From a virus (lineage: Duplodnaviria; Heunggongvirae; Uroviricota; Caudoviricetes): 64,000 nucleotides of DNA. Made by a program: the position numbers and the translations under genes. The DNA lies in IMG/VR virus record IMGVR_UViG_2541047715_000004. The stretch is one strand, 5' to 3'. Numbering within the stretch: position 1 is the stretch's first letter; every line of letters begins with the position of its first letter. This document shows, one piece after another, positions 15,603-63,600 of the stretch. The notes below the pieces were generated by a model. It saw only the letters and a program-made list of their open reading frames with translations. It was not told the DNA's origin and searched no databases.

Positions 15603-15677
15603 GATGGTGTAGCTCAGCGGTAGAGCAGTTGGCTGTTAACCAACTGGTCGGTGGTTCGAATCCACCCACCATCGCCA
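15603..15677 (+). tRNA. tRNA-Asn (GTT)
   Basis: Cloverleaf by eye: acceptor GATGGTG/CACCATC, D stem GCTC/GAGC, anticodon loop CTGTTAA, T loop TTCGAAT, CCA end. Confidence 0.8.
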
Positions 15678-15682
15678 ATTTA

Positions 15683-15769
15683 GGGGAGTTAGTCCGTAGA
15701 GGTAGCGGTGTAGACTGTAAATCTACTGTCATTGCGACTCGGGTGGTTCGACTCCATCACTCCCCACCA
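15683..15769 (+). tRNA. tRNA-Tyr (GTA), long variable arm
   Basis: Acceptor GGGGAGT/ACTCCCC, anticodon stem GTAGA/TCTAC with loop CTGTAAA, T loop TTCGACT, CCA end; D arm atypical. Confidence 0.65.
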
Positions 15770-15773
15770 AATT

Positions 15774-15849
15774 GCCGGTTTAGCTCAGTTGGTAGAGCGC
15801 CTGCCTTGTAAGCAGGATGTCAGCGGTTCGAGTCCGTTAACCGGCACCA
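15774..15849 (+). tRNA. tRNA-Thr (TGT)
   Basis: Acceptor GCCGGTT/AACCGGC, D stem GCTC/GAGC, anticodon stem CCTGC/GCAGG with loop CTTGTAA, T loop TTCGAGT, CCA end. Confidence 0.8.
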
Positions 15850-16076
15850 ACACAACAGGAAAGAGCATTGAAAACCGCCGAGACTGCCCTGTTTTAAGCG
15901 TAAGTCCGTGCAAACGTCATACAGTGCTCTTTTCGTTGTGGTTGATGCGCAGACTGATGCGCGGAAAGAAATGCCCCAGCGACACACGAGGCGAGTTCAC
16001 ACACTGCAATGCAGTCAGTAGCCGGGGTCGCTAAGCCGGAGATCAGTACCGGTAACCACAACAATTGGAGAGTAGG

Positions 16077-16163
16077 GAGCATGGTGCTCAAGCGGTCTTG
16101 AAAACCGTCCCATTGCGCAAGCGATGATGGTTCGATTCCATTACTCTCCGCCAGACACAGCGT
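16077..16163 (+). tRNA. tRNA-Ser (TGA), long variable arm
   Basis: Acceptor GGAGAGT/ACTCTCC, anticodon stem GCGGT/ACCGT with loop CTTGAAA, T loop TTCGATT, CCA end. Confidence 0.6.
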
Positions 16164-56796: not shown

Positions 56797-56944
56797 TAAG
56801 TAAGTGTTTACCTATCATTTTAAATCATGTATCTTATCAGCGTCAGGATGACAATGTGTCGGTAAGACACAGTTCCAGGATGGAACGAGAAAGGCGGCTG
56901 GCGATCGCCAGCCGCAACTCTTTCTGACACTGGATGGAGTCCAC

Positions 56945-57439
56945 ATGGCACGTCAAACCTATTTCACTTCTGCAACTAAACGTCCTCGTTCTTTACGTCA
57001 AATTTTGGCCGAATTGTTTAGCGGTCGTGTTATGTCACGTCTTGATGAACTAGAGACTACCGTTCGGTTGCTGAATGAACGTTTAGATAATCAAGCGTCA
57101 GTTGTTGCGAACGTGGGGGCGATTGTTGCCTCTGGTTCTTCACGCGAAGCGAAAAGTACACGGCCTTTAGTGAAGGAGAAAAACAACAAGGACAGTTCGA
57201 ATGGAAAATTTTCAAAGAAAGAGGCTGAAACCAATGGCCTACGTTCTCATTATAGTTTCACTGGCGACGGTAGCCGTTCCAGCCGGCCAGAGCCTTTTGA
57301 TGCCGGGTTCATCCATCACCACACCTCCGTCGACGACAATTACCACCACTCCAGTAGAGCGTCCTGTCACTCTGGATGGGATGACGGTGGATGCGATACC
57401 TCAAGTTCATCCAGTTACTCAGGATCATGTTGTGACTAA
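56945..57439 (+). CDS. hypothetical protein (model uncertain; overlaps alternative-frame ORF 57201..57452)
   Basis: 164 aa ORF; C-terminal half low-complexity Ser/His-rich; alternative frame encodes signal-peptide-like Thr/Pro-rich protein. Confidence 0.3.
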   Translation: MARQTYFTSATKRPRSLRQILAELFSGRVMSRLDELETTVRLLNERLDNQASVVANVGAIVASGSSREAKSTRPLVKEKNNKDSSNGKFSKKEAETNGLRSHYSFTGDGSRSSRPEPFDAGFIHHHTSVDDNYHHSSRASCHSGWDDGGCDTSSSSSYSGSCCD

Positions 57440-57448
57440 GGTGGTTGT

Positions 57449-57637
57449 ATGAACTGGCTTTCAAATCACTTTGGGAAAATTTGGCTGGCAATTCTGGCTC
57501 TCATGGCCGCCGGTTGGGTATCCAACATTATAAAACTCGTTTGCTCAGGTGATCTCCAGTTTCAGGCTGGCATGACCTTGGCTCGTGTAGTTGGGATTTT
57601 TATTTTTCCAGTCGGTTCGGTACTTGGTTATTTCTGA
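57449..57637 (+). CDS. small membrane protein
   Basis: 62 aa, two hydrophobic segments. Confidence 0.35.
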   Translation: MNWLSNHFGKIWLAILALMAAGWVSNIIKLVCSGDLQFQAGMTLARVVGIFIFPVGSVLGYF

Positions 57638-57730
57638 CGGTTGTTAGTGCATATGCATTGACCGTCTTTGCGTAAGCAATTTATGTAACCAGAAAACAAT
57701 TTGTTTTGACAAATAGCAAAAGGAAAACAC

Positions 57731-58156
57731 ATGTTAGGTTTCTTCAAAAAGAAAACTCGTAAAGCTGTTATCGAAGTCAAAAAAATGGAGAACCGTGATG
57801 CGGTTGAAGCCACCGTGTGGGGCGGGTACATGATCTCCTATGCCAACGGTACATGCGATGCAAAAGAAATTTCCATTCTTGAGAAAACAATTGCAGCTCT
57901 GCCTGCATTTTCTCCTTTTGCTGGTGAGATTGCCCAGATGAGCGCCAATATCCGCGCTCAATACGAAGCCTCACCGCGCCGTGCTAATGCCCAGGCTTTA
58001 CGTGAGCTGGCGGATGTGGCCGGGACTGATGATGCAGTAGATGTACTGTGTCTGTGCCTTGATATTGCCGACCAGGACGGCATTGATGAACCAGAAGAGC
58101 AGGCGCTGAAAAAGATCGCCCAGGCGCTTCAGTTGTCACTGGATGCTTATCTCTAA
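57731..58156 (+). CDS. TerB-like domain protein (putative)
   Basis: Helical pattern with acidic cluster DQDGIDEPEEQAL reminiscent of TerB family; an unlisted 52-aa membrane ORF (about 58156..58314) overlaps its stop. Confidence 0.4.
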   Translation: MLGFFKKKTRKAVIEVKKMENRDAVEATVWGGYMISYANGTCDAKEISILEKTIAALPAFSPFAGEIAQMSANIRAQYEASPRRANAQALRELADVAGTDDAVDVLCLCLDIADQDGIDEPEEQALKKIAQALQLSLDAYL

Positions 58157-58323
58157 TGCTTGAGAGATTCCGGCTTGTGACCGTCATTGCTCTTCTGGTG
58201 ATAGCGGTGTTGGTGGATTTTACGGGAAAGATGATGTCTGTCATTTCTGATGGCGTCCTCATTGGTCTGGCGATCTACTTCGCTTATCCGCTAGTCCGTA
58301 AAGCAACGTGTTAATGACAAGGG

Positions 58324-58352
58324 CCAAATGGCCCTTGTGTTTCGTTGACCGA
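58324..58352 (+). terminator. intrinsic terminator hairpin
   Basis: CAAGGGCC-AAAT-GGCCCTTG followed by TGTTTCGTT. Confidence 0.65.
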
Positions 58353-58453
58353 AATAGAGAGTTTGCACCTTTACGTTTAGCTTGCTCCCCTTTTATGCCA
58401 CATCACAATAAAGCCAATAAGAAAACAACTTGTTTAAGCATTAGGAAAAACAC

Positions 58454-59023
58454 ATGTGCAAGAAATGCAAAGCGATAGCTGATGAACAAAACGCCTTATT
58501 CGAAGAAATGGATGCTAATGAACTGGTCAAAATGTTAGCCATTCTTCGAGGAATAGAAGACGTTTCCATATTTGAGAGAGTGGTTACAGCACTTAATTTT
58601 GAGTCCACCTTTGAAGAGCCAACTCAGGTTGTAGCTTTAGCACATCATTTCGGTGTTCATTATCTTGCTGAAAAAGAGCGCGCTGATAAGTTGCAGGCGA
58701 CTTTGGATATGGTGAGCGAGACTCAACGAACTGATGACACTAACAAGAGTGAGGCGATTATTGCCAGCAAAGATCGTGAAATTGCTGGGCTTAAATCCTC
58801 TCTAACGATGTTGATGTCTGCGTTCAATCTTATGTCTTCTCAGGCGGGTTATAAAATGCCATCACTAAACAGCGATGATCCGATGGCCGTTCGTCAGCTT
58901 TTGGGAGCAATGGCCGACCAACTCGACGACACAAAGAGTCGCCTTGAAGACATGATGCGTGAGTTAAGCCATCGACATAACCTCGCAACACAACCACACA
59001 AAGTCTTTCAAAGCTCTAATTGA
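58454..59023 (+). CDS. hypothetical coiled-coil protein
   Basis: 189 aa ORF; preceded by AAACAACTTGTTT upstream motif. Confidence 0.45.
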   Translation: MCKKCKAIADEQNALFEEMDANELVKMLAILRGIEDVSIFERVVTALNFESTFEEPTQVVALAHHFGVHYLAEKERADKLQATLDMVSETQRTDDTNKSEAIIASKDREIAGLKSSLTMLMSAFNLMSSQAGYKMPSLNSDDPMAVRQLLGAMADQLDDTKSRLEDMMRELSHRHNLATQPHKVFQSSN

Positions 59024-59077
59024 TCTGATATGGCCGCATGATCGGCCATATTGTGTTGATAAAAACAAGGGTGAAAA

Positions 59078-59359
59078 ATGGCATACGGTACAGGGATTTA
59101 CAACAATAAAGGAATTAACGTTACTGGCTTCCTTACACCTATTTTTTTTCTTGATCGATTTACGGCGTCATCAGGCTCTAAGACGTACTCTAATCCGCCA
59201 CCGGGTAAATCACTACATGCCGTGTGGTCATTAATGCCTCTTAACAACGACAACTACATCAATTTACCTGTTCCAAATGTTACTATTAATGGAAATACGG
59301 TTAGTTGGTCAAATTTATATACGGGGCTTGGTTCTTACATATACACATACTGGGGATAA
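59078..59359 (+). CDS. hypothetical protein, paralog of 1343..1597
   Basis: 93 aa; shared FLDxFTxSxGSKTY...TVSWS pattern. Confidence 0.45.
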   Translation: MAYGTGIYNNKGINVTGFLTPIFFLDRFTASSGSKTYSNPPPGKSLHAVWSLMPLNNDNYINLPVPNVTINGNTVSWSNLYTGLGSYIYTYWG

Positions 59360-59361
59360 TT

Positions 59362-59976
59362 ATGTTCGGGATGTCAATTACTCAATCAGATGGAAGTTTG
59401 TGGATGAGTCCTGAATTTACTCCGCAAAATCTGATTAATAAAGGGACAATGTCTACATCTAAAGGTTCTGTTTTTCAAACATCAATCCCATCAAACAAAT
59501 CATGCTTTTTCTTCATAAAAAGCAGCAATAAGGCGAACATGATGTTTATTCATGAACATAGTAACGGATACAATGCTCTCAGATTGCATCAGGTAAATGG
59601 TAGCCCCGGAACAATAACAGTTTATGCTTTTTCTGATATGGTGTTACCACATTCTGGCTATGGCATTGCCATGTATAACAGCGCAGGCGCAATGGTGTAT
59701 CACGGTGAGATGATGCCCCTTGATGCAAAACTTATCACTATTACTGACCCACAATTTACAATAGATATGGGGTATCCGTGCGCAGTAATGCCTGCTATGG
59801 TTGGGGTTTATAACTATAGACGAACCGATTACGACAGACCTGTCTATGTAACTATGACCGGTGCAACTGGAAACCAAGTATATAACGGTCAATGGTATTC
59901 CGGTAATGTCACATGGGATATTAAGAAGATTTATACAAACAAAATCCTGGTTATAAATACCTCAAAGTATGATTAG
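59362..59976 (+). CDS. hypothetical protein, paralog of 1691..2206
   Basis: Start at ATG overlapping upstream stop (TAATTATG); shared SDGxxWMSP...CFF N-terminal pattern with region 1597..1715. Confidence 0.45.
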   Translation: MFGMSITQSDGSLWMSPEFTPQNLINKGTMSTSKGSVFQTSIPSNKSCFFFIKSSNKANMMFIHEHSNGYNALRLHQVNGSPGTITVYAFSDMVLPHSGYGIAMYNSAGAMVYHGEMMPLDAKLITITDPQFTIDMGYPCAVMPAMVGVYNYRRTDYDRPVYVTMTGATGNQVYNGQWYSGNVTWDIKKIYTNKILVINTSKYD

Positions 59977-60079
59977 CAAATACCTTTATTTAAAGGATTG
60001 CCTGTTAATTTCTATTTAGCACCTTTTCATTTTTGAAATAATTGCACTATTAAACAAATCTTTTCTTAATGGTGCAATT

Positions 60080-60556
60080 ATGAATACAGCTCTTTCCATC
60101 ATCGACGATACCAACTCAAACACTGCTATCGATTATCGTCAGGAAATGAACGTCATCCACGAAATCGTAGCCGAGTGCGAGAAAGAGATCGCCTTCATGT
60201 ATCAGGTTCACGACTTCGTTTATGGCGACGAACGCCACAACATGATTAATCGCCTGCTGCAACTGAACCATCGACCAGATGAAGAACGCTCACGTTTGAA
60301 TCGAGCTTGGCTGGATAAAGTCGATCTGGAATGGGTGAAACAGAATATTTGGGCCGAGTACTGGAGGAAGGTCACGGATATGACTAACGTTTTGCTGATC
60401 ATGCCAGCTTCCCGTCGCGACGAGTGGCGTGAGCAGTTTATAGAGGGCAAACAGGAAGTCATCAAAACTGACAGAACCGGCTACCAGATGAAGGTTAAAG
60501 AGTTCGTTGGTGTACCTGAGTTCAAAGTGGATACAAACATCCCTACGATGGTTTGA
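60080..60556 (+). CDS. hypothetical protein convergent with hsdR
   Basis: 158 aa ORF. Confidence 0.4.
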   Translation: MNTALSIIDDTNSNTAIDYRQEMNVIHEIVAECEKEIAFMYQVHDFVYGDERHNMINRLLQLNHRPDEERSRLNRAWLDKVDLEWVKQNIWAEYWRKVTDMTNVLLIMPASRRDEWREQFIEGKQEVIKTDRTGYQMKVKEFVGVPEFKVDTNIPTMV

Positions 60557-60614
60557 TCTGACAGCTATCTGCAATTTGCACAGATGTCTGCCAGATCTGG
60601 TTCAGATTAATACA

Positions 60615-63600
60615 CTATATCTGCCCACCTACTCCTTTGAACTTTTCAATAAACGTGACGATTTTCTGGAAAACGGTCTGTTTTTTCGTTTTATATTGCG
60701 GGTTTAACGGACTAAGTTTTGGTAATGTCTCGTTTAATTCTGTGCCATTTTCGGTGGCGTATTCGCGTTTTAAAGACGTGCGAATATAGCGTTTCGCCGC
60801 CTCTTCATTGAGATTTTCTTCTTTTATCAATGCTTCTGCTTCACGTTGCTGTTCGCGTTGAGCAAACGTAAAGAATGCCTCAATGATACTGGCTTTGTCT
60901 GGTAAATCATCCAGGTTCGTTTGCTGAATAAAATCGACCACCAGGCCCTCTTTCGCCCGGTTCCCCAGGCTTGAACGAATTAAGCGTTTGACCTCTTCGA
61001 TCATTTCGCCCTTGCCTTTATTTTGTCTGTTGTGTTCGAAAATCAGTCCAAGGATATAATCCAGGTTTATTTCCTGAGACTTCAGCAAATCGACCTCAAA
61101 AACTACGTCATCCCAGTCAGTGGTTGATTTCTCTTTTTTCTCAGCTTCTTTCTCACGGCGCTGCCAGTCGCGAATATCGTTATAGGCAGAACGATAATCC
61201 TGAATCTTGCGTTCAGCAGGGAGACGAATTGTTTGCAATTCAGCGAACTTTTCATCATCCACATAATGTTCTGCTTTGAATTTTTCTACCGCAACAGGAT
61301 CGCTAAGATCGATTTGTTGCAGGGCTTTCAGCGTGGCAAATTCATCATAGTTTTGCAGGATGTTCTCGGCACGCAGGTATTCACCAAACAGTTTTACGAA
61401 GTCTTTCTTCTCTTTTTCACTTTCAATACTGGCAGGGTCAGGGAACCGTTGTTCCAGTTCTGAAACTACTGCCATAAAGCCGCGTTTAGCTTCACCAGTG
61501 GCAGCATCTGTAAAGCCTTCCATATACTCAGCATAACTCTTTTCTAACACCACATTTTTAGTATTTTTATCACCAAACAGCGTTATGGCATCAATGGTTG
61601 AGCGTTCCAGATCCCGAAAAGTGACGATGTTACCGAAGGTTTTAGTAGCGTCATAAATGCGGTTGGTACGGGAGAATGCCTGCATCAGGCCGTGAAAACG
61701 CAAGTTTTTATCGACGAATAGCGTGTTCAATGTTGGAGCGTCGAAGCCGGTTAAAAACATCCCAACGACAATTAACAGATCGATATCCTGATTTTTAACC
61801 CGTTGGGCTAAATCACGATAGTAGTTCTGAAAACCGTTACTGTCGGTGCTGAAGTTAGTTTTAAAATAGCTGTTATACTCACGAATTGCAGCGTCAAGAA
61901 ACTCTTTAGCACTGCTGTCCATTGCGCTGGTATCAAAAGTTTCATCGGAAATTTCACCAATGGCATTTTGTTCTTCATTGGCGGCAAAGGAGAAGATTGT
62001 TGCAACACGCAGCGGTTTATAGGTAGCCGATTTATTAGCTGCTTCCTCTTGTAACCGTTTAAACGTCGCGTAATAGGCTTTCGCGGCATCCACGCTACTC
62101 ACTGCCAGCATGGCATTAAAGCCTTTGGAACCTGGGAAAGTACGGTGGGTCTTCTGGCGGAAGTTATTCAGAATATATTGCGTAATTTCCTGTATACGCA
62201 TGGGATGAAGAAATGCCTGCTGATTTTCAGCCGCACTCAGTTTTTTCTCGTCGGTTTCTGTCTCTAAAGATTTAAACTGTGGCCGCACATCGTTGTAGTC
62301 CACCTTGAATTTGAGCACTTTTTCATCACGAATCGCATCGGTAATTACATACGAATGCAATTCACGACCAAATACGCTGGCGGTCGTTTCTGAGCCTAAG
62401 GCGTTTTCCGGGAAAATAGGTGTGCCGGTAAAACCAAACTGATAATAGCGTTTGAATTTCTTCTTCAGGTTTTTCTGCGCTTCTCCAAACTGGCTGCGGT
62501 GACATTCATCAAATATAAACACCACTTGCTGATTGTATACAGGCAGGTCGCTTTCTGCTTTCATCAGGTTATTAAGTTTCTGAATAGTGGTGACGATAAT
62601 TTTGTTATCGTCCTTATCCAGATTGCGTTTAAGACCTGCGGTATTTTCCGAGCCGTTGACGCTGTCTGGCGAAAAACGCTTATATTCATTCATGGTCTGG
62701 TAATCGAGGTCTTTCCTGTCGACCACGAAGAAGACTTTATCAATAAAGTCCAGCTCTGTTGCCAGACGCGCGGCTTTAAAGCTGGTGAGGGTTTTACCTG
62801 AACCGGTAGTGTGCCAGATATACCCACCGCTTTCCGGTTTTGACCAGTTCTTCGCTGTAAAGGAACTCTTAATTTTCCACAGAATGCGCTCAGTGGCGGC
62901 AATCTGGTACGGTCGCATCACCAGTAGCGTTTGGCTAACATCGAATACGCTGTAGTTCACTAAGACATTAAGCAGGGTATGTTTCTGGAAAAAGGTGGCG
63001 GTAAAGTCTTTGAGGTCTTTAATCAGCGTGTTGTCTGATTTCGCCCAATTCATGGTGAAGTCAAAACTGTTTTTATCGCGCTTTGTCGTGTTGGCAAAGT
63101 AACGGGTATCGGTGCCGTTGGAAATGACAAACAGTTGCAGATACTTAAACAGAGAATTTTCGCTGTTAAAACTCTCTTTGCTGTAACGATGTATCTGGTT
63201 AAAGGCCTCACGAATCGCCACGCCGCGCTTTTTCAGTTCGATTTGTACCAGCGGTAAGCCATTAACCAGGATCGTGACGTCATAACGGTTAGCATGAGAA
63301 CCCGTCTGTTCAAACTGCTGGATAATCTGCACCTTGTTGCGCATGAGATTCTTTTTATCTATCAAATAGATGTTCTCAAGACGCTCGTCATCAAAAATAA
63401 AGTCGCAAATATAGTCGATATGGATTTTACGGGTCTTATCCAGGATGCCATCGCTCGGGTTATCCAGATACTGCTCCGTGAAACGCCGCCATTCGCTGTC
63501 ATTAAACACCACACCATTGAGGTTCTGAAGCTGTTCCCGAACGTTGGCCAGCATCGCCGACTGAGATTTTACGGAAATAAATTCATAGCCCTGATTCCGC

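What the first reader, a model, noticed from the sequence alone, without database searches (positions are those of the whole stretch)
57731..58352. TerB-like protein with overlapping small membrane protein as a terminator-closed unit near the restriction locus
A 141-aa protein with a TerB-like helical pattern and acidic patch is followed by an overlapping unlisted 52-aa hydrophobic ORF (about 58156..58314) and a terminator. The unit has the AAACAATTTGTTT upstream motif and lies in the accessory-looking stretch (56945..60556) leading up to hsdR. TerB-domain proteins recur in stress-response and conflict loci.
Basis: inference. Interest (0 to 1): 0.4.

Follow-up and report, generated by a model that had tools for sequence, protein, structure and literature searches.

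The report
Phage tciA–tciB (TerB-like) accessory cassette
The flagged unit is real but already known: it is the tciA–tciB gene pair first named in phage P1, a distant TerB relative plus a tiny membrane hairpin protein, carried here as a removable cassette of an SSU5-like phage-plasmid, and its function has never been tested.

Summary
There is a 141-aa ORF (57731..58156) and a 52-aa hydrophobic ORF overlapping it by one base (58156..58314, TAATG). A strong hairpin terminator follows at 58317..58338, and AAACAATTTGTTT sits 24 nt upstream of the first ATG. The window is an E. coli SSU5-like phage-plasmid.

The 141-aa protein is 80% identical to phage P1 TciA. At profile level it is a full-length homologue of Klebsiella TerB (PDB 2JXU, E 2e-27). 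The 52-aa protein is DUF3927/TciB. Phage Cyrano, 97% identical over this region, already carries the annotation "P1 TciA-like/TciB-like".

The pair is accessory. SSU5 keeps the motif and the terminator with the two genes missing, and P1 tciABC is non-essential by published CRISPRi. Across 21 sampled lineages, the TciA-like gene abuts a membrane-protein gene in 19: usually this hairpin, otherwise TerC, a Na/Ca-exchanger-family protein, a porin or a single-helix protein.

I infer a membrane-bound TciA·TciB complex that stands in for TerB·TerC and acts on the membrane or cation state of the infected cell. Tellurite resistance is unlikely because no terC/D/E is present. Proximity to hsdR is incidental. 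Ordinary; low-to-moderate interest.

The parts
57694..57706 (+). Palindromic motif AAACAATTTGTTT heading the cassette. It is a candidate operator or promoter-proximal site for a dimeric regulator, and one of 7 similarly placed sites in the window.
   Evidence: enrichment 18 against 4.7 expected; all sites 16-35 nt upstream of a start codon. Homology with Klebsiella phage-plasmids begins at 57692, right at the motif. The motif is retained in SSU5, where the genes are missing.
57720..57725 (+). Ribosome-binding site AAGGAA for tciA
   Evidence: Read directly from the sequence. The same '...aaggaaaacacATG' leader recurs at other motif sites.
57731..58156 (+). tciA: a 141-aa cytoplasmic all-helical TerB-family protein. 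It has a polybasic, hydrophobic-tipped N-terminus and two acidic A-[D/N]-G-x5-E loops (residues 38-46 and 113-122).
   Evidence: (80% identity to P1 TciA).
58156..58314 (+). tciB: a 52-aa two-helix membrane hairpin (DUF3927), translationally coupled to tciA through TAATG. Conserved residues are D21, F22, S28, D32, G33 and P45.
   Evidence: PF13064, E 3e-12, 46.7 bits against a cut-off of 25; 39% identity to P1 TciB.
58317..58346 (+). Intrinsic terminator: 9-bp G+C-rich stem, 4-nt loop, imperfect T tract.
   Evidence: z = -5.0; compensatory change in Klebsiella; retained in SSU5.

Best explanation
This is the tciA-tciB cassette, first named in phage P1. It sits here as a self-contained accessory module (motif, RBS, tciA, tciB, terminator) in the replication and nucleotide-metabolism arm of an E. 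coli SSU5-like phage-plasmid.

Shown: TciA is a distant, full-length homologue of TerB from the terZABCDE operon. TciB is a 52-aa two-helix membrane hairpin whose gene is translationally coupled to tciA. The pair is conserved across very different temperate and lytic phages, and it is dispensable.

Inferred, in decreasing order of confidence:
(1) About 0.6: TciA works at the inner membrane in complex with TciB, which takes the place that TerC holds next to TerB in ter operons.
(2) About 0.35: the two acidic D-G-x5-E loops of TciA bind a divalent cation or similar ligand. Together with the conserved aspartates at the hairpin turn of TciB, the complex senses or adjusts the membrane or cation state of the cell while the element replicates.
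(3) About 0.3: the pay-off is protection of the infected or lysogenic cell against membrane-directed insults such as superinfecting phages or pore-forming colicins.

It is not by itself a tellurite-resistance determinant. The shared upstream motif suggests it is switched together with the helicase, RNR and partition genes by one DNA-binding regulator.

The confidence value given (0.5) is for the whole statement; identity as the tciA-tciB cassette alone is about 0.95.
For: Identity: 80% to P1 TciA and 39% to P1 TciB; PHROG 632 and 1470; Pfam TerB and DUF3927 above their cut-offs; annotated as P1 TciA/TciB-like in phage Cyrano, 97% nt identity.

TerB homology: family profile against 2JXU E 2.3e-27; hhalign 99.3%; AF2 pLDDT 93.6, top Foldseek hit 2h5n; G40, E46, G117 and E122 are nearly invariant among 99 family representatives.

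Membrane partner: in 14 phage lineages, 10 have a DUF3927 hairpin at offset -8 to +4 and 2 have an unrelated single-helix protein at -4/+4. In metagenome lineages I found a hairpin again (L016, L018, L029, L030), a Na_Ca_ex protein (L021-23) and a porin (L024/25), while L027 has a soluble 175-aa neighbour. TerC sits directly upstream of the TciA-like gene in L030 and two genes upstream (after a second TerB gene) in Vibrio phage BUCT194. Canonical terB is followed by terC, and a TerB-TerC complex is reported (cited in PMC8123226).

Cation clue: TerC and Na_Ca_ex are cation-transporter families. The profile gives weak troponin-C hits (E 0.13). TerD of the same system binds Ca2+ (cited in PMC8123226).

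Accessory status: SSU5 empty site, P1 CRISPRi non-essential, variable in P1-like elements.

Infection-time role: present in N4-like and jumbo lytic phages next to dUTPase, tRNA and nucleotide genes. The motif is shared with the DnaB-like, RNR-small and ParA-like genes.

Not tellurite resistance: no TerZ/A/C/D/E homologue in the 64-kb window, while terB, C, D and E are all needed for resistance (PMC8123226).
Against: No experiment exists for any TciA or TciB. The P1 names rest on homology only.

Physical interaction, TciB topology, ligand binding and any phenotype are all untested here.

This copy has N39 where 81 of 99 relatives have Asp in the first loop.

Two of the 21 lineages have no adjacent membrane-protein gene (PMBT3 and L027). 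BUCT194 has a soluble protein directly downstream, and its only membrane neighbour is the TerC gene immediately upstream of the TciA-like gene.

The N-terminal helix is not significantly amphipathic.

TciB shows no detectable similarity to TerC or to any solved structure.

The one TciA-TciB fusion found (P0085) looks like a frameshifted P1 copy on a single contig, so it is weak evidence.
Confidence: 0.5

Rival explanations
1. It is a genuine tellurite (or colicin) resistance determinant, as the database names say.
For: RefSeq names it 'tellurite/colicin resistance protein'. It is homologous to TerB. ter operons confer tellurite resistance, phage inhibition and colicin resistance (PMC8123226; PMC9603915).
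Against: Pairwise identity to TerB is about 15%, and BLAST is not significant (E 0.45). [quoted passage not shown] The pair also occurs in strictly lytic phages, where metalloid resistance has no obvious use.
Confidence: 0.05
2. It is a host cell-division or growth-arrest device: TciAB blocks septation early in lytic development.
For: terZ, A, B and C give filamentous cells (Whelan 1997 and Ponnusamy 2015, as cited in PMC8123226). This is the origin of the 'inhibition of cell division' part of the tci name. It sits among early replication genes and shares their motif. A P1vir transcriptome paper groups it with icd and kilA, but by annotation only.
Against: No direct evidence exists. Filamentation was mapped to gene sets that include terZ and terA, which are absent here. 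Knock-down in P1 had no effect on plaque formation.
Confidence: 0.12
3. It is a membrane-peptide plus regulator pair for lysis timing, or a toxin-antidote pair. TciB would be a membrane-perturbing hairpin and TciA its cytoplasmic brake.
For: The layout is a small two-helix hydrophobic protein translationally coupled to an upstream acidic soluble protein. In two Pseudomonas phages the hairpin is replaced by another small membrane protein.
Against: It is not next to lysis genes in any locus examined. The polar residues D21, S28 and D32 are conserved, which suggests a specific site and not bulk hydrophobicity. In some lineages the partner is a large transporter-family protein or porin. It is non-essential in P1.
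Confidence: 0.1
4. It is a counter-defence decoy. A phage-borne TerB look-alike would interfere with host defence systems that use a TerB protein for membrane surveillance (Shango, Bunzi, Dionysus).
For: TerB domains occur in Shango, Bunzi and Dionysus, and Dionysus acts on jumbo phages at the membrane stage (bioRxiv 10.1101/2025.09.30.679545). TciA-like genes are found in Erwinia and Salmonella jumbo phages (PMC7824862).
Against: There is no PADLOC hit to any defence TerB model at E up to 0.1. The family is much wider than the known host range of those systems. The conserved membrane partner is not explained by a decoy role.
Confidence: 0.07

Closest known systems
[quoted passage not shown]
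   Same: TciA has the same length and 80% identity. TciB is the same DUF3927 hairpin at 39% identity. The stop/start overlap is the same. The function is equally untested and the genes equally non-essential.
   Different: There is no tciC: a terminator follows tciB directly, and tblastn finds no TciC. P1's copy lies inside the long C1-controlled ban transcription unit, flanked by tRNA genes. Here the pair has its own upstream motif and terminator in an unrelated (SSU5-like) backbone.
TerB of the terZABCDE operon (Klebsiella TerB, PDB 2JXU) together with its neighbour TerC
   Same: Full-length homology at profile level (E 2e-27; hhalign 99.3%), the same size (141 against 151 aa), the same duplicated A-D-G-x5-E loops, and a gene order of TerB-like protein followed by a membrane protein.
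   Different: Identity is only about 15% and is not detectable by BLAST. The partner is a 52-aa hairpin with no similarity to the 345-aa TerC. TerZ, A, D and E are absent, so the tellurite phenotype cannot be assumed.
TerB-domain components of anti-phage systems (Shango SngA, Bunzi BnzA, Dionysus DinB)
   Same: A TerB domain that works with membrane proteins in a phage-host conflict setting; the proposed role is membrane surveillance.
   Different: Those are host-encoded parts of multi-gene defence systems with other effectors. TciA matches none of their PADLOC models and is carried by phages, including lytic ones.
Standalone TerB genes of group 1 Erwinia jumbo phages (Iyer et al. 2021, PMC7824862)
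   Same: The same family: ChrisDB gp6 is 43% identical and is followed by a TciB-like hairpin. That paper proposes a role in competition with superinfecting phages.
   Different: The paper treats TerB as a standalone gene and does not mention the hairpin partner in the passage retrieved. The host, phage type and regulation also differ.

Membership tests
TerB family (Pfam PF05099) | Score above Pfam's curated gathering threshold | tested here: met
   26.2 bits against 24.4, E 1e-5, residues 33-136. The margin is narrow.
TerB family (Pfam PF05099) | Full-length homology to an experimentally solved TerB | tested here: met
   A profile of 99 family members against 2JXU gives E 2.3e-27, positions 8-143 to 14-150. 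hhalign against Klebsiella TerB gives 99.3% probability, E 3.6e-20. The single sequence alone finds nothing.
TerB family (Pfam PF05099) | Duplicated acidic loop A-D-G-x5-E (predicted ligand or metal site) | tested here: inconclusive
   The second loop is complete (D116, G117, E122). The first loop has N39 where 81 of 99 relatives have D, while G40 and E46 are kept. Binding itself was not tested.
TerB family (Pfam PF05099) | All-helical TerB-like fold | tested here: met
   AF2 pLDDT 93.6, seven helices. The top Foldseek PDB hit is 2h5n (PG1108; it also matches the TciA family profile, E 0.0014), probability 1.0, TM 0.51-0.57, though E is only 0.035.
P1-type tci module | TciA orthologue followed by an overlapping DUF3927 TciB | tested here: met
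   80% and 39% identity, TAATG overlap, PF13064 46.7 bits against 25.
P1-type tci module | Third small gene tciC | tested here: not met
   The terminator starts 3 nt after the tciB stop. tblastn with P1 TciC finds nothing in the window.
ter operon tellurite-resistance determinant | Presence of terC, terD and terE with terB (all four are essential for resistance) | tested here: not met
   tblastn with TerZ, A, C, D and E against the whole window: best E 0.31. The requirement is cited from PMC8123226.
ter operon tellurite-resistance determinant | Confers tellurite, colicin or phage resistance | not testable with these tools
   Needs MIC, colicin and phage assays.
Known anti-phage defence systems with TerB (Shango, Bunzi) | Match to the system's protein models and presence of the partner genes | tested here: not met
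   No PADLOC hit for TciA, TciB or three neighbours at a meaningful E-value. Dionysus is not in that library.
Superinfection-exclusion genes | Blocks entry or development of a second phage | not testable with these tools
   Proposed for phage TerB genes in PMC7824862. No sequence criterion exists.

The most novel reading that the evidence does not exclude
TciA-TciB is a minimal, phage-borne divalent-cation device. Oligomers of the 52-aa hairpin, with conserved Asp residues at the turn, would form or gate a cation path. TciA would be an EF-hand-like cytoplasmic sensor that controls it. Phages would use it early in infection to reset the membrane or Ca2+/Mn2+ state, excluding rival phages or blunting membrane-triggered abortive defence. 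It would be the smallest working version of the still unexplained TerB-TerC pair, and therefore an experimental handle on what the Ter system senses.
Probability: 0.2. Interest if true: 0.6.

Novelty: already known. Interest (0 to 1): 0.27.

Why it matters
As a discovery it matters little. The gene pair was named in P1 in 2004, is in Pfam and PHROGs, and is annotated in a 97%-identical phage.

It matters somewhat as an open question. A version of the pair is found in about 10% of complete E. coli genomes (555 of 5,426), in hundreds of Klebsiella and E. coli phage-plasmids, and in lytic N4-like and jumbo phages, yet no one has tested what it does.

The neighbour survey here gives a concrete, testable lead. 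A TciA-like protein almost always sits beside a membrane protein, and where that neighbour belongs to a known family it is TerC, a Na/Ca-exchanger-family protein or a porin. That lead bears on both the phage genes and the long-unexplained TerB-TerC core of the tellurite-resistance operon. It also warns against reading 'tellurite resistance' in annotations of phage-plasmids as a resistance phenotype.

Tried and rejected
(1) TciB as a fragment or miniature of TerC. hhalign of the TciB alignment against Klebsiella TerC gave probability 0.1%. Rejected.

(2) Single-sequence searches. phmmer of TciA against the PDB found nothing relevant, and BLASTP of TciA against TerB gave E 0.45. Homology shows only at profile level.

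(3) PADLOC defence models: no meaningful hit for TciA, TciB or neighbours.

(4) NCBIfam: nothing above cut-off.

(5) Sigma-70 promoter scan: no + strand promoter upstream of tciA at the tool's threshold. A weak TTGACC-17-TTATGT can be read by eye, but I do not rely on it.

(6) Rfam on 56800..60700: no RNA family.

(7) Literature search for the motif sequence: no relevant paper.

(8) The search for related loci with the 99-sequence alignment failed because the alignment was too diverse. I sampled contexts with the fetch of an annotated region and the look-up of encoding contigs instead.

(9) A structure model of the natural TciA-TciB fusion P0085 with a block alignment. MAFFT misplaced the TciB rows, and the predictor reports no inter-chain error map, so I did not run it.

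(10) An amphipathic N-terminal helix in TciA. The hydrophobic moment is not above shuffles (14% of shuffles are as high), so I claim only 'hydrophobic tip plus polybasic stretch'.

(11) TciB against the PDB by profile: nothing.

(12) P0085 as 'Rosetta stone' evidence. It is a P1-type sequence with a frameshift-like junction on one contig, so it counts as weak evidence only.

Full report
WHAT THE WINDOW IS. The 3.7-kb stretch 56900..60600 is 100% identical to about 110-kb non-mobilizable E. coli plasmids and 97% identical to Escherichia phage Cyrano. More distant matches go to Klebsiella phage-plasmids and to Salmonella phage SSU5. The window is therefore part of an SSU5-like phage-plasmid. The finding lies at the end of its replication and nucleotide-metabolism arm. 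That arm holds a ParA-like gene, a DnaB-like helicase, a DNA polymerase, RNR subunits and RNase H, and runs up to a convergent hsdR.

THE OBSERVATION.
- A 141-aa ORF at 57731..58156, and a 52-aa ORF at 58156..58314 that overlaps it by one base (TAATG).
- A hairpin terminator at 58317..58338. Its fold of -22 kcal/mol lies five standard deviations below shuffles.
- The palindrome AAACAATTTGTTT at 57694..57706.
- Residues 19-141 are acidic (pI 4.1), while residues 1-18 carry +7/-1 charges behind a hydrophobic tip, MLGFF.

WHAT THE GENES ARE. The 141-aa protein is 80% identical over its full length to TciA of phage P1, and the 52-aa protein is 39% identical to P1 TciB.
- PHROGs files them under family 632 ('tellurite resistance', E 3e-61) and family 1470 ('TciB-like', E 6e-20).
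- Pfam gives TerB just above threshold (26.2 against 24.4 bits) and DUF3927 well above it (46.7 against 25).
- Phage Cyrano already annotates the two genes as 'P1 TciA-like' and 'P1 TciB-like'. RefSeq plasmids call them 'tellurite/colicin resistance protein' and 'DUF3927 family protein'.

So the unit is a known, named gene pair, and the 'unlisted' ORF is a recognised gene.

IS IT REALLY TerB? The single sequence finds no solved structure, and BLAST against Klebsiella TerB is not significant. I collected 162 family representatives and aligned 98 full-length ones with the window protein. The resulting profile hits TerB 2JXU at E 2.3e-27 over the whole length, and hhalign gives 99.3% probability at about 15% identity. 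An AlphaFold2 model built on that alignment is confident (pLDDT 93.6, seven helices). Its best Foldseek match in the PDB is the TerB-like protein 2h5n (probability 1.0, TM 0.51-0.57). The family keeps two A-D-G-x5-E loops: G40, E46, G117 and E122 are at least 90% conserved. This copy has N39 where 81 of 99 relatives have Asp. The profile's weak matches to troponin C (E 0.13) fit the EF-hand-like look of these loops, but I treat that as a hint only.

IT IS A REMOVABLE CASSETTE. Nucleotide homology between the E. coli and Klebsiella phage-plasmids starts at 57692, at the motif, and ends at 58335, in the terminator, while the flanks diverge. The terminator stem carries a compensatory A-T to G-C change in Klebsiella.

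In SSU5 itself the two upstream genes and the downstream 189-aa gene are syntenic, but tciA and tciB are missing. What remains is the motif, about 25 nt of leader-like sequence, and then the same AAGGGCC...GGCCC hairpin, followed by an ant gene. So the coding part of the pair is exactly what is present or absent.

Published work agrees on three points:
- About half of P1 subgroup-1 elements have lost tciABC (PMC9603915).
- CRISPRi knock-down of P1 tciA, tciB and tciC does not affect plaque formation (PMC10695390).
- In pSLy3-type phage-plasmids these genes appear in the legend of the loci where resistance genes are found (PMC9600943).

The neighbourhood of hsdR is incidental. Cyrano has the cassette but carries a full DUF4942 methyltransferase-like gene where this window has hsdR.

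THE PAIR IS THE CONSERVED UNIT. I examined 14 phage lineages that carry a TciA-like gene.
- Ten have a DUF3927-type hairpin starting between -8 and +4 nt from the tciA stop. These are this element, Klebsiella phage-plasmids, P1, lambdoid JLK-2012, two N4-like Salmonella phages, two jumbo phages, Pseudomonas phage nickie and Pantoea phage LIET2.
- Pseudomonas phages AF and Ebordelon have instead an unrelated 67-73-aa protein with one N-terminal membrane helix at -4/+4.
- PMBT3 has no downstream partner.
- Vibrio phage BUCT194 has a soluble downstream protein, but directly upstream it has a second TerB gene followed by a TerC gene (Pfam TerC, E 3e-41).

Seven further divergent lineages from metagenomes gave the following:
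- A hairpin again in four (L016, where it was not called as a gene; L018/19; L029, with a C-terminal extension; and L030, where TerC also lies directly upstream).
- A 360-aa Na_Ca_ex-family protein in one (L021-23).
- A porin in one (L024/25).
- A soluble protein in one (L027).

Canonical terB is itself followed by terC. So in 19 of 21 lineages the TerB-like gene abuts a membrane-protein gene. Where that neighbour is a large protein of known family, it is TerC in two lineages, a Na/Ca-exchanger-family protein in one and a porin in one. TerC and the exchanger belong to cation-transporter families.

TciB keeps D21, F22, S28, D32, G33 and P45 across lineages that are otherwise 27-40% identical. 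By the positive-inside rule (R4, R6, R48 and K49 against K25) both termini should be cytoplasmic and the two aspartates should lie near the outer end of the hairpin. That topology is an inference.

HOW IT MOST LIKELY WORKS. I commit to the following model, with probabilities.
- TciA acts at the inner membrane in complex with TciB, which plays the part TerC plays for TerB (about 0.6).
- The acidic loops of TciA bind a divalent cation or similar ligand, and the complex senses or adjusts the membrane or cation state of the cell (about 0.35).
- The benefit is protection of the infected or lysogenic cell from membrane-directed insults such as superinfecting phages or pore-forming colicins (about 0.3).

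Three published lines fit this. Ter operons inhibit phages and protect against colicins, and a TerB-TerC complex is reported (cited in PMC8123226). Iyer et al. propose that phage Ter genes serve competition with superinfecting phages (PMC7824862). TerB proteins in the Dionysus, Shango and Bunzi defence systems are thought to survey the membrane.

The presence of the pair in strictly lytic phages next to tRNA, dUTPase, dCTP deaminase, MazG and ThyX genes argues for a role during infection and not only in lysogenic conversion. Here the upstream motif is shared with the DnaB-like, RNR-small, CobT-like and ParA-like genes, so tciAB is probably switched with them. Each motif ends only 16-35 nt before a start codon, so it must lie at or after the transcription start. 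As a 6+1+6 palindrome it cannot form a stable RNA hairpin, and it looks like a site for a dimeric DNA-binding protein. That reading is inference, and no paper in the library mentions the sequence.

WHAT IT IS NOT. It is unlikely to be a tellurite-resistance determinant. No TerZ, A, C, D or E homologue exists in the 64-kb window (best E 0.31), and terB, C, D and E are each required for resistance (PMC8123226). It matches no PADLOC defence model. TciB is not a detectable TerC fragment. The remaining rivals cannot be excluded without experiments but have less support: cell-division inhibitor, membrane-peptide/regulator pair, and counter-defence decoy.

VERDICT. It is an ordinary accessory cassette of unknown function. 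My analysis adds the clean empty site in SSU5, the motif-to-terminator boundaries, and the neighbour survey that points to a membrane- and cation-linked role. Interest 0.27.

Noticed in passing
window 5433, 8669, 20541, 36030, 47468, 57694, 58423 (each 13 nt, + strand): A dispersed palindrome AAACAAnTTGTTT with the shared context ...AGA-motif-a lies 16-35 nt upstream of the start codons of the ParA-like, DnaB-like, CobT-like, unknown (36059), RNR-small, tciA and PHROG-5508 genes. It is conserved in Klebsiella phage-plasmids and in SSU5 (4 sites in 9.5 kb against 0.04 expected). It looks like the operator or promoter-proximal site of one element-wide regulator. No paper found mentions it.
   Followed up: partly
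window 57987..58021; L031 401-434 (E. coli EC42405 chromosome, NZ_CP043414.1): A type I-E CRISPR array in a bovine E. coli strain has a 32-nt spacer identical (32/32) to tciA at 57990..58021. The window has ATG immediately upstream, which from memory is an interference-proficient I-E PAM. So tciA-bearing elements are CRISPR targets.
   Followed up: yes
L032 2800-2880 (Salmonella phage SSU5, NC_018843.1) against window 57690..58340: SSU5 has an 'empty' cassette: the motif, about 25 nt, then the same terminator hairpin, with tciA and tciB absent. An anti-repressor (ant) gene follows in the same slot, before the conserved 189-aa gene.
   Followed up: yes
window 60080..60556: This 158-aa ORF is only the N-terminal part of a 561-aa DUF4942 / DNA-methyltransferase-like gene that is intact in Cyrano and SSU5. 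Homology to Cyrano stops at about 60527. The convergent type I hsdR segment therefore replaced the rest of that gene.
   Followed up: partly
L002 (P1), L003 (ChrisDB), L004 (nickie), L007 (JLK-2012), L015 (pSal-SNUABM-04): In five unrelated phages the tciA-tciB pair lies directly beside tRNA genes: Asn/Thr and Ile in P1; Asn/Thr/Gly in JLK-2012; Trp/Cys upstream in both jumbo phages, with Tyr/Gln/Ile/Met also downstream in ChrisDB; Arg in nickie. In this window the tRNA cluster is 42 kb away (15603..16153). Unexplained.
   Followed up: no
window 59078..59976: Two genes (PHROG 557 'outer membrane protein' and PHROG 425 'membrane associated protein') are 78% identical at the DNA level to genes of the lytic phages JenP1, JenP2 and BRET. 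They are absent from the Klebsiella phage-plasmids, so they are a second horizontally shared insert in this stretch.
   Followed up: no
window 57845..57847 (codon 39 of tciA): This copy has Asn where 81 of 99 family representatives, including P1, have the Asp of the first A-D-G-x5-E loop. Six others also have Asn.
   Followed up: partly
P0085 (196 aa, one Logan contig): A single-chain TciA-TciB fusion of P1 type, with the junction ...LEQLYLMVIK.... It is probably a frameshift or assembly error. It would be topologically compatible with a cytoplasmic N-terminus for TciB.
   Followed up: partly
NZ_AP027545.1 87621-92574 against window 56900..60600: One otherwise identical plasmid matches in two pieces spanning 4,954 bp instead of 3,701. 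That implies an insertion of about 1.25 kb in this stretch, in line with the published note that resistance genes and IS elements cluster beside these genes in pSLy3-type phage-plasmids.
   Followed up: no
L006 1-1392 (Vibrio phage BUCT194), L030 70-990, L021 3499-4581: Some phages carry TerC-family or Na/Ca-exchanger-family membrane proteins next to TerB-like genes. BUCT194 has TerB-TerC followed by a second TciA-like TerB.
   Followed up: partly
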